Source of the DNA: Escherichia coli O127:H6 str. E2348/69
GTDB lineage: Bacteria; Pseudomonadota; Gammaproteobacteria; Enterobacterales; Enterobacteriaceae
DNA length: 64,000 nucleotides
Assembly (NCBI RefSeq): GCF_000026545.1
Contig: NC_011601.1
Strand: one strand, 5' to 3'
Made by a program: the position numbers and the translations under genes. The notes under the pieces were generated by a model. That model was not told where the DNA came from. It did no database searches and worked only from the letters and a program-made list of their open reading frames with translations. Positions 17,291 to 18,662 of this stretch are shown in pieces. The stretch's first letter is position 1, and every line of letters starts with the position of its first letter.

Positions 17291-17587
<297 letters not shown>

Positions 17588-17780
17588 TATTCTGCTCTGG
17601 AAGTAGAGTGTTAATTATTTTATAGGAAAATCTTAACGCTATTATATTTATTTAAATGATGATATTAGCATAATGATTCACTAAGTTAATTTATATAGTA
17701 TCTGCCCAGACACTTATTTATAGTTATTAAAGGCGCGTCCGATTGGTTCACCGGACGCACCTTAAGTACGTTTCCTTGTG

Positions 17781-17861
17781 TTATAAGAACAAAAGGAGCA
17801 GCTGTAAAACAGCAATGATGATTTTGATGACCCGTTTAATCAGGTATCGGCAATCAGTCAT
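17781..17861 (-). CDS. shoB: Type I toxin small membrane peptide ShoB (26 aa)
   Basis: Reverse-strand ORF atgactgattgccgatacctgattaaacgggtcatc... translates to MTDCRYLIKRVIKIIIAVLQLLLLFL; hydrophobic 26-mer recognised as ShoB; not in the ORF track because of its size. Confidence 0.85.
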   Translation of the reverse strand: MTDCRYLIKRVIKIIIAVLQLLLLFL

Positions 17862-18179
17862 TCGTTTTTCCTTAAACAAGGAATGCAGCCGTTCAGATTA
17901 GCCCTTACATCTCCCCAAAACTGAACGTGCGAGTTATTGGAATCGAGTGCTGCACTCCACACCAGAGCTTTGACGACACCACTCGTTTCAATGGGGGAAT
18001 TCAGTGGCATGGTGTAAAGCACAGCAAAATTGCCAATAACGAAACCGATTTTAATGTACTTATCAAAAAGCGGTCACGTTAATCTTTTCATCAATGTCGA
18101 TTTCTTCGTAAAGGCTCGCGTTTTTTATGTCAGAGATTGCAAGTTGCTTGTACAGGTCAACGAAATTGATCCATAATCA

Positions 18180-18262
18180 TTTTCGTTGGAATCGTGTGCT
18201 GCACAAAATTAAAGTTAAAAAGTAAAACCCCCGTTCCTTACCAGTTCGGGGGTTTTACTTTA
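18180..18262 (+). ncRNA. ohsC: Candidate antitoxin sRNA OhsC (approximate ends), ending at hairpin aaaacccccg...cgggggtttt plus T-run
   Basis: A 19 nt segment (18186-18204) is an 18/19 direct repeat of 17937-17955 in the shoB 5' UTR, so a plus-strand transcript here is complementary to shoB mRNA; a possible -10 (cataat, about 18170) and an intrinsic terminator at 18226-18262 bracket it. Ends are inferred. Confidence 0.5.
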
Positions 18263-18281
18263 TAAAGAGAACGGTATTATT

Positions 18282-18662
18282 TTAACTTTCAATAATTACC
18301 GTGGCACAAGCATAGTGGCGCTCATCGGCAAGCGTTACATGCATATTTACAACGCCGAGCTTTTCCGCCAGTTTTAATGCCTCACCCCATAGCCGTAGCC
18401 GTGGTTTGCCGAGCTCATCATTGAATACTTCAAACTGATTAAACGCCAGACCATTGCGGATCCCTGTGCCAAATGCTTTTGCCGCCGCTTCTTTCACAGC
18501 AAAACGCTTCGCCAGAAAACGCACTGGCTGGTGGTGCGTTTTCCAGATTTCCCATTCGTTATCGCTTAATACGCGGCGTGCCAGGCGTTCACCGGATCGG
18601 GCGATCACCGCTTCTATGCGAGCGATCTCCACAATATCCGTACCTAAACCTAATATTGCCAT
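18282..18662 (-). CDS. acpS: Holo-ACP synthase (126 aa)
   Basis: ORF track 18282..18662; [32 protein letters not shown]. Confidence 0.96.

What the first reader, a model, noticed from the sequence alone, without database searches (positions are those of the whole stretch)
17781..18262. shoB-ohsC type I toxin-antitoxin locus with a 19 nt near-perfect direct repeat giving trans complementarity
A 26-codon hydrophobic ORF (MTDCRYLIKRVIKIIIAVLQLLLLFL) on the minus strand is the ShoB toxin. The segment 18186-18204 (ttggaatcgtgtgctgcac) is an 18/19 direct repeat of 17937-17955 in the shoB 5' UTR. A short plus-strand RNA ending at the strong terminator at 18226-18262 would therefore pair with the shoB leader, the arrangement described for divergent type I systems. 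This is known biology, but the small gene is absent from the ORF track and easy to miss; the exact ohsC ends and the single central mismatch are worth confirming.
Basis: partly seen in the sequence, partly recalled or inferred. Interest (0 to 1): 0.3.

Follow-up and report, generated by a model that had tools for sequence, protein, structure and literature searches.

The report
Known shoB-ohsC toxin-antitoxin locus, variant allele
This is the already described E. coli shoB-ohsC small-toxin/antisense-RNA pair, correctly read by the first stage; the one added point is that this strain carries a second, co-changed version of the RNA-RNA pairing site, which shows that the pairing is kept by natural selection.

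Summary
The 26-codon ShoB ORF lies at 17781-17861 (-). The 18/19 direct repeat (17937-17955 / 18186-18204) is real and non-random. Rfam's ohsC model matches 18185-18261 (+) at 101 bits against a cut-off of 50, which aligns with the K-12 ohsC annotation (window 18185-18263). The window is identical to E. coli E2348/69.

It is the known shoB-ohsC type I toxin-antitoxin locus. OhsC nt 1-20 pair with shoB mRNA nt about +86 to +105, 75 nt upstream of the AUG.

New detail: compared with K-12, an 8-nt block inside both repeat copies is swapped in concert.
- Among 5,426 complete E. coli genomes, about 1,687 carry the window-type ("W") pair.
- About 3,000 carry the K-12 pair, and about 616 carry a G·U variant of it.
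- Chimeric queries found 0 and 1 genomes with mismatched combinations.
- The central mismatch is a U·U. It is fixed in the W lineage, with 0 "repaired" genomes.
- E. albertii adds a G-C / G·U / A-U series at one pair.

Predicted folds place the target's conserved flanks in a helix with the mRNA 5' end. They also show a dinQ-like alternative helix that opens the ribosome-binding site only in the processed mRNA.

Verdict: already known, low-to-moderate interest.

The parts
17781..17861 (-). shoB coding sequence (26 codons plus stop)
   Evidence: ORF present; annotated shoB in the identical E2348/69 sequence; 25/26 identical to K-12 ShoB (L22 instead of I22)
17868..17873 (-). shoB Shine-Dalgarno AAGGAA
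   Evidence: read from the sequence; RBS AAGGAA reported as 100% conserved in PMC11264685
17878..17883 (-). anti-SD UUCCUU, which closes the SD in a hairpin
   Evidence: predicted in all folds; invariant in 15 haplotypes
17880..17889 (-). 'sequence 3' GCUGCAUUCC (mRNA nt 153-162), alternative partner of the target's conserved half
   Evidence: the helix with nt 84-93 scores -16.7 kcal/mol. It costs +14 kcal/mol in the full-length RNA and +2.7 in the +42 form. Prediction only.
17937..17955 (-). OhsC target in the shoB 5' UTR (mRNA nt about +87 to +105); left copy of the direct repeat
17940..17947 (-). variable specificity cassette in the target (W: GAATCGAG on the + strand; K-12: AGGGTGCA)
18010..18040 (-). 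5' end of the primary shoB transcript (nt 2-32), predicted to pair with both conserved flanks of the OhsC target
   Evidence: pair 9:102 occurs as G-C, G·U and A-U across haplotypes
18048..18077 (-). shoB promoter (-35 GTGACC at 18077-18072; -10 TAAAAT at 18053-18048); transcription start inferred at about 18041
   Evidence: the same hexamers are reported in PMC11264685. The start site is inferred, not mapped here.
17730..17763 (-). shoB terminator hairpin
   Evidence: (I3)
18148..18177 (+). ohsC promoter (-35 TTGTAC, -10 CATAAT)
   Evidence: PMC11264685 reports TTGTAC in 33.1% of strains and CATAAT in 100%
18185..18263 (+). ohsC sRNA gene
   Evidence: Rfam RF02495 match at 18185-18261, 101.3 bits, cut-off 50; the K-12 annotation b4608 maps to 18185-18263
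18186..18204 (+). OhsC pairing region; right copy of the direct repeat (cassette at 18189-18196)
18219..18261 (.). palindromic terminator of ohsC, placed to also terminate convergent acpS
   Evidence: I2; structure line and the sub-threshold minus-strand hit

Best explanation
This is the chromosomal shoB-ohsC type I toxin-antitoxin locus of E. coli, in the allele carried by B2/E/F-type strains. shoB (-) is transcribed from about 18041 as a roughly 317-nt mRNA with a 180-nt leader. ohsC (+) is transcribed divergently from 18185 as a 79-nt sRNA. OhsC nt 1-20 pair with shoB mRNA nt about +86 to +105: 18 Watson-Crick pairs, one terminal G·U, and one central U·U.

Inferred mechanism:
1. In the primary transcript, the mRNA's own 5' end (nt 2-32) holds the conserved flanks of the target in a long helix. 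That form is neither translated nor a good OhsC partner.
2. After the reported 5' processing at +41, the target region is free. Its conserved half (GGAGUGCAGC) can pair with the anti-SD region and open the ribosome-binding site.
3. OhsC binding takes that half away, so the SD hairpin stays closed. The duplex is then a substrate for RNase III.

What is shown here: sequence identity, gene order, ends by homology, complementarity, and covariation. What comes from the literature on K-12: toxicity, repression, the +41 end, and RNase III sites. What is inferred from predicted folds: the structural switch.
For: Identity of the locus:
- The window is 100% identical to E2348/69, with shoB annotated.
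- The K-12 annotation of shoB and ohsC is syntenic between yfhL and acpS.
- The Rfam ohsC match scores 101 bits.
- The promoter hexamers are as published.

Pairing energies:
- Duplex energies are -34.2 (W/W) and -41.4 (K/K), against -21.5 and -23.0 for cross pairs.
- Net cofold gain on the +42 mRNA is -20.1 and -24.0 for cognate pairs, against -2.2 and -12.0 for cross pairs. On the full-length mRNA it is only -8.9 and -14.3.

Selection on the pairing:
- 6 of 20 intermolecular pairs show changes on both sides, and 97.5% of cells are paired, against 24-47% when the register is slid.
- W/W occurs in 1,687 genomes, K/K in 3,000 and K/K' in about 616. W-target/K-ohsC occurs in 0 genomes and K-target/W-ohsC in 1.

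Structure:
- The 5'-end:target helix appears in both alleles and in the 15-sequence consensus.
- The alternative SD-opening helix costs +14/+10 kcal/mol in the full-length RNA but +2.7/+1.0 after removal of 41 nt.

Literature:
- The 5' end of OhsC has 19 nt of complementarity to the shoB 5' UTR (PMC3919570).
- The full-length mRNA is inert and the +41 form is translated; a dinQ-like fold has been suggested for shoB (PMC5066626, PMC5397157).
- An RNase III site lies in the shoB/OhsC duplex region in vivo (PMC6212723).
Against: - No transcript data exist for this strain, so both transcript 5' ends are inferred by homology and promoter spacing.
- In equilibrium folding the SD hairpin stays closed (P unpaired 0.08-0.22) in every state, including the processed form. 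The switch therefore rests on a suboptimal structure 1-3 kcal/mol above the minimum.
- Nearly all intramolecular pairs are invariant, so they give no covariation support.
- The near-absolute matching of target and sRNA alleles could owe much to their being only 249 bp apart. A control marker about 140 bp on the other side shows three of four gametes, so it gives no evidence of recombination there.
- The primary paper (Fozo et al. 2008) could not be read.
Confidence: 0.95

Rival explanations
1. Same locus, different mode of repression. OhsC blocks a ribosome standby site in the single-stranded target region, as IstR-1 does on tisB. It does not redirect the fold of the leader, and the RBS stays sequestered throughout.
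For: The SD hairpin is predicted closed in all states. The target lies 75 nt upstream of the AUG. The target becomes more open after 5' trimming: P unpaired rises from 0.17 to 0.32 in W and from 0.33 to 0.43 in K. Reviews propose this for shoB (PMC4147584, PMC5397157).
Against: A near-isoenergetic SD-opening helix uses part of the target. This would explain why the half TGCTGCAC never varies. No experiment on shoB supports a standby site. The two modes are not mutually exclusive.
Confidence: 0.35
2. The direct repeat is a leftover of a local duplication or a chance match. The plus-strand element is only the acpS terminator, with no regulatory pairing.
For: The terminator is palindromic and is placed to serve acpS as well. 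Deleting type I antitoxins often gives no phenotype (PMC11264685).
Against: Chance expectation for the repeat is 0.01 matches. Both copies changed in concert at 7-8 positions, and discordant combinations are almost absent. The full-length Rfam match includes the 5' part. The ohsC promoter is conserved. An RNase III site in the duplex region is reported in vivo.
Confidence: 0.02
3. shoB translation is coupled to a 54-codon leader ORF (18022..17858, -) whose stop overlaps the shoB AUG (AUGA). OhsC would act on that ORF, as Sok acts on mok.
For: The ORF is open in E. coli W, K and K', in E. whittamii and in E. albertii, and ends in the AUGA overlap.
Against: No Shine-Dalgarno precedes its GUG or AUG. 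Both candidate starts lie in the 5' helix and are removed by the +41 processing that yields the translated form. The few substitutions are mostly nonsynonymous. The sequences are about 97% alike, so an open frame is weak evidence.
Confidence: 0.04

Closest known systems
shoB-ohsC of E. coli K-12 (b4687 / b4608; Fozo et al. 2008; Rfam RF02495)
   Same: Same position between yfhL and acpS, same strands, same promoter hexamers, same sRNA length, and ShoB 25/26 identical. The 5' end of OhsC pairs with the same place in the leader.
   Different: An 8-nt block in both the target and the OhsC 5' end is replaced: GAATCG[A/T]G here, AGGGTGCA in K-12. The pairing has one U·U mismatch instead of being perfect. 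The K-12 5' hairpin of OhsC (GUGCA/UGCAC) is largely lost. The ohsC promoter spacer and discriminator are about 60% different, including the region called CB2.
zorO-orzO / zorP-orzP (E. coli O157:H7)
   Same: Divergent type I pair. The sRNA 5' end pairs with a long 5' UTR. A short variable block ('V1') decides which sRNA represses which toxin: OrzP, with 15 of 18 nt complementary, does not repress zorO (PMC3919570).
   Different: In zor/orz the two specificities are tandem paralogues in one genome. Here they are alternative alleles of one locus in different strains. Discrimination between the OhsC alleles has not been tested.
dinQ-agrB (E. coli)
   Same: The primary transcript is inert and a 5'-processed form is active. 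Four sequence elements form mutually exclusive helices, and the sRNA binds element 2. This was suggested for shoB in PMC5066626 and fits the energies.
   Different: For shoB the switch is only predicted. There is no SHAPE or mutational support.
tisB-istR-1 (E. coli)
   Same: Divergent arrangement. The 5' end of the sRNA pairs about 100 nt upstream of a sequestered RBS. RNase III cleaves the duplex. The processed mRNA is the active form.
   Different: tisB is under LexA control and uses a proven standby site. A standby site has not been shown for shoB.

Membership tests
shoB-ohsC type I toxin-antitoxin locus | 26-aa hydrophobic ShoB toxin ORF | tested here: met
   25/26 identical to K-12 ShoB; annotated shoB in the identical E2348/69 sequence. 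No Pfam or NCBIfam model exists for it.
shoB-ohsC type I toxin-antitoxin locus | sRNA matching the OhsC covariance model above Rfam's gathering score | tested here: met
   RF02495, 101.3 bits against a cut-off of 50, full length 1-77, window 18185-18261 (+)
shoB-ohsC type I toxin-antitoxin locus | Divergent, non-overlapping genes between yfhL and acpS | tested here: met
shoB-ohsC type I toxin-antitoxin locus | About 19 nt of complementarity between the OhsC 5' end and the shoB 5' UTR | tested here: met
   18 of 19 plus a terminal G·U; duplex -34.2 kcal/mol; compensatory changes at 6 pairs across alleles and species
shoB-ohsC type I toxin-antitoxin locus | Published promoter elements of both genes | tested here: met
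   shoB GTGACC/TAAAAT and ohsC TTGTAC/CATAAT, as listed in PMC11264685
shoB-ohsC type I toxin-antitoxin locus | Both RNAs are made, with the stated ends, in this strain | not testable with these tools
   No transcript data. Ends are taken from the K-12 annotation by alignment.
shoB-ohsC type I toxin-antitoxin locus | ShoB is toxic when overproduced, and OhsC represses its synthesis | not testable with these tools
   Known for K-12 from the literature only
Divergent type I systems with an inert primary transcript (tisB, zorO, dinQ type) | The 5' end of the primary mRNA sequesters the antitoxin target and/or keeps the RBS closed, and 5' trimming activates it | tested here: inconclusive
   Predicted helix nt 2-32 with 78-109 in both alleles. 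Net OhsC binding is about 10 kcal/mol better on the +42 form. The SD-opening helix is reachable only after trimming. All of this is prediction; the pairs are invariant.
Divergent type I systems with an inert primary transcript (tisB, zorO, dinQ type) | RNase III cleavage of the sRNA-mRNA duplex | not testable with these tools
   Reported for K-12 in PMC6212723. The effect of the U·U mismatch is unknown.

The most novel reading that the evidence does not exclude
The 8-nt cassettes define two mutually non-cognate OhsC/shoB specificity classes, W and K. Selection against mismatched recombinants keeps each class matched. The W class, with its saturated divergence in the ohsC promoter spacer and discriminator, entered E. 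coli by introgression from an unsampled Escherichia lineage. Its fixed central U·U mismatch tunes repression or RNase III cleavage and is not neutral.
Probability: 0.35. Interest if true: 0.45.

Novelty: already known. Interest (0 to 1): 0.28.

Why it matters
The locus itself is textbook. The allele comparison has some value. [quoted passage not shown]

The counts here show that pairing is preserved genome by genome. They rest on concerted changes at six base pairs and a G-C / G·U / A-U series, with 1 discordant genome in 5,426. That is natural-variation evidence that the OhsC-shoB interaction is under selection, even though deletions show no phenotype.

The comparison also supplies three ready-made experimental materials: a pair of probably orthogonal antitoxin/target alleles, a natural mismatched recombinant, and a natural repeat-to-repeat deletion.

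Finally, it explains the pattern of conservation. The invariant half of the repeat has three predicted partners. The variable half has only OhsC.

Tried and rejected
- Fozo et al. 2008 could not be read by PubMed id or by PMC id. The K-12 experimental facts are therefore cited second-hand.
- The AcpS-anchored scan of species genomes returned 80 Enterobacterales loci. shoB/ohsC was present only in Escherichia, and the E. albertii contig was cut inside ohsC. This was rescued by an exact-protein look-up. E. fergusonii, E. marmotae and E. ruysiae were not reached.
- Pfam and NCBIfam have no model that matches ShoB.
- Linkage control: a two-SNP marker in the shoB 3' coding end gave only three gametes, so it cannot separate selection from tight linkage.
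- Equilibrium folding did not show the SD opening in the processed mRNA. Only an enforced suboptimal helix does.
- The cofold of OhsC(W) with shoB(K) used a second site in the coding region. I treat this as a prediction artefact.
- Literature searches for OhsC with 'phylogroup' or 'compensatory' found nothing relevant.

Full report
**Observation**

The window around 17500-18600 reads yfhL (+), then a minus-strand ORF at 17781..17879, then acpS and pdxJ (-). The ORF's internal ATG at 17861 gives MTDCRYLIKRVIKIIIAVLQLLLLFL.

The repeat finder reports the two 19-nt copies, 17937-17955 and 18186-18204, at 95% identity and 249 nt apart. A search of the whole window on both strands, allowing up to 3 mismatches, finds only these two sites. 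Shuffles give 0.01 expected matches.

The simple terminator scan missed it because of its 13-nt loop.

**Identity**

The 701-nt stretch is 100% identical to E. coli E2348/69 and other B2 strains, and it is present in 5,425 of 5,426 complete E. coli genomes. RefSeq annotates shoB at exactly this ORF in E2348/69.

K-12 carries shoB at 2700117-2700197 (-) and the ncRNA ohsC at 2700520-2700598 (+), between yfhL and acpS. Through the pairwise alignment, the K-12 ohsC maps to window 18185-18263. Rfam's ohsC_RNA model matches 18185-18261 (+) over its full length at 101.3 bits, against a gathering score of 50. A 35-bit minus-strand match is the palindromic terminator.

The consensus scan finds the promoter hexamers that a 2024 survey lists. 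For shoB these are -35 GTGACC and -10 TAAAAT. For ohsC they are -35 TTGTAC (the 33% variant) and -10 CATAAT.

These hexamers place the ohsC start at G18185, one base before the repeat. They place the shoB start near 18041. The target then lies at about +87 to +105 of a roughly 317-nt mRNA, 75 nt upstream of the AUG.

**What the K-12 comparison adds**

The two sequences are 95% identical overall, but both repeat copies differ from K-12 in the same 8-nt block.

| Allele | Target (+ strand) | OhsC 5' end |
|---|---|---|
| Window ("W") | TTGGAATCGAGTGCTGCAC | TTGGAATCGTGTGCTGCAC |
| K-12 ("K") | TTGAGGGTGCATGCTGCAC | TTGAGGGTGCATGCTGCAC |

In K-12 the two copies are a perfect 19/19 match.

Duplex energies are -34.2 kcal/mol (W/W) and -41.4 (K/K) for cognate pairs. 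Cross pairs give -21.5 and -23.0.

**Counting allele combinations**

The identity distribution of the 371-nt core is bimodal: 1,736 genomes at 95% or more, and 3,669 at 80-90%. To count combinations within genomes I used 90-nt chimeric queries, made of 45 nt around the target joined to 45 nt around the OhsC 5' end. Megablast's 28-nt word makes each half allele-specific.

| Combination (target / ohsC) | Genomes | Call |
|---|---|---|
| W / W | 1,687 | 19 |
| K / K | 3,000 | 20 |
| K / K' (A12 to G, giving a G·U wobble) | about 616 | 47 (506 with one flank variant) |
| W / K | 0 | 38 |
| K / W | 1 | 39 |

- The single K/W case is strain Z1323CEC0015. It is a real recombinant with its breakpoint in the ohsC promoter, and its duplex energy is -19.5 kcal/mol.
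- All 22 E. coli loci fetched and read individually agree with these classes.
- A query with the mismatch "repaired" at either site found no genome. The U·U mismatch is therefore fixed in the W lineage and is not a strain-specific error.

**Outgroups**

An AcpS-anchored scan of species genomes recovered shoB/ohsC only in Escherichia. It was absent from Citrobacter, Enterobacter, Klebsiella and the other genera among the 80 loci. This matches the published distribution (PMC2887945).

- E. whittamii has the K target with the K' OhsC.
- E. albertii has the K' OhsC, and its target carries C opposite G12 and U opposite G8.
- Pair 12 is therefore G-C in E. albertii and W, G·U in K', and A-U in K.

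I counted pairs on concatenated OhsC::target rows. Of all cells, 97.5% form standard pairs, against 24-47% when the register is slid. Six of 20 pairs show changes on both sides. This is direct comparative evidence for the intermolecular helix.

**How far this shows selection**

The two sites are only 249 bp apart, so linkage alone could keep them matched.

- A marker about 140 bp to the left, the two-SNP I22/L22 haplotype, shows only three of four gametes. It does not demonstrate nearby recombination.
- The haplotype table does show mosaic flanks just to the right of ohsC. acpS protein alleles are also shared between the W and K' classes.
- I therefore rate selection for matched pairs as likely but not proven.

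**Mechanism**

Predicted folds of the full-length mRNA of both alleles are far more stable than shuffles, with z-scores of -6.7 and -5.8. The 15-haplotype consensus agrees with them.

- In these folds, nt 2-9 pair with 102-109 and nt 16-32 pair with 78-94.
- The mRNA's own 5' end therefore covers both conserved flanks of the OhsC target.
- The variable cassette (nt 95-101) sits in an internal loop with no intramolecular partner.
- Pair 9:102 occurs as G-C, G·U and A-U. All other pairs are invariant and so uninformative.

The literature on K-12 reports that the roughly 320-nt transcript is not translated, while a form starting 41 nt downstream is. It also suggests a dinQ-like set of four elements for shoB (PMC5066626, PMC5397157).

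The calculations here are consistent with that.

- The net cofold gain for cognate OhsC is -20.1 and -24.0 kcal/mol on the +42 form, against -8.9 and -14.3 on the full-length form.
- A helix between nt 84-93 (GGAGUGCAGC, overlapping the target) and nt 153-162 (GCUGCAUUCC, overlapping the anti-SD) scores -16.7 kcal/mol and leaves the SD unpaired.
- That helix costs +14.0 (W) or +10.3 (K) kcal/mol in the full-length RNA. It costs only +2.7 or +1.0 in the +42 form.
- OhsC binding would remove that partner and keep the SD hairpin closed.

Against this, plain equilibrium folding keeps the SD closed in all states. A standby-site mode like that of tisB remains a serious alternative. RNase III cleavage in the duplex region has been detected in vivo in K-12 (PMC6212723).

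This anatomy would explain why TGCTGCAC never varies and the adjacent 8 nt do. The conserved half has three predicted partners: the mRNA 5' end, the anti-SD region, and OhsC. The variable half has only OhsC.

**Comparison and novelty**

The locus is the known shoB-ohsC system. The nearest analogue for the allele behaviour is zor/orz, where a short variable block (V1) decides which sRNA represses which toxin. There, 15 of 18 complementary nucleotides are not enough (PMC3919570).

The 2024 survey saw variation in the pairing regions but left open whether pairing holds within each genome. No paper in the held library describes the concerted alleles.

I file the finding as already known. The added note on allelic covariation has modest specialist interest.

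Noticed in passing
L007 (E. coli E1620, NZ_CM180509.1), corresponding to window 17956-18204: A natural 249-bp deletion lies exactly between the two 19-nt direct repeats. It removes both promoters and the first roughly 85 nt of the shoB leader and fuses the shoB target to the OhsC body.
   Followed up: partly
L018 (E. coli Z1323CEC0015, NZ_CP148423.1): This is the only genome of 5,426 with a K-type shoB target and a W-type ohsC. The recombination breakpoint is in the ohsC promoter. The predicted duplex is only -19.5 kcal/mol.
   Followed up: partly
L017 (E. coli EC96, NZ_CP060748.1): An IS1 abuts the ohsC -10 and shoB is gone. This is an antitoxin-only strain of the kind mentioned in PMC11264685.
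   Followed up: partly
L109 and L111 (E. albertii, including GCA_000155105.1): An IS1 (777 bp including the target duplication) is inserted about 14 nt upstream of the shoB -35, between the two divergent promoters.
   Followed up: partly
window 17858-18022 (-): A 54-codon ORF in the shoB leader ends with a UGA that overlaps the shoB AUG (AUGA). It is open in all Escherichia sampled. It has no SD, its substitutions are mostly nonsynonymous, and its start codons are removed by the +41 processing.
   Followed up: partly
window 18154-18184: The ohsC promoter spacer and discriminator differ from K-12 at about 60% of positions. The -35, the extended -10 (TGATCCATAATC) and GTTG are kept. This covers the region called CpxR box CB2 in K-12, so CpxR control of ohsC may differ in W-type strains.
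   Followed up: no
window 18219-18261: The OhsC terminator is a near-perfect palindrome lying 20 nt from the acpS stop, so it is placed to terminate convergent acpS as well. It produces a sub-threshold Rfam ohsC hit (35 bits) on the minus strand.
   Followed up: partly
window 18185-18204 versus L002 1521-1540: K-12 OhsC has a 5-bp 5' hairpin (GUGCA-UGC-UGCAC) that underlies the Rfam consensus structure. The W allele largely lacks it, so the pairing region is predicted to be more open.
   Followed up: partly
L008 (E. coli O99:H6 CU42ET-1) and L006 (E. coli FCI1): These are rare W-type target variants. L008 has G to T in the invariant half (GTGATGCAC), which weakens the duplex to -25.5 kcal/mol. 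L006 has a 2-nt insertion in the target (-27.6 kcal/mol) and may be an assembly error.
   Followed up: no
window 17625-17760 versus L004, L015, L019: The yfhL-shoB spacer of one K' sub-haplotype is very divergent from both the window and K-12, which shows a mosaic of recombined segments around the locus.
   Followed up: no
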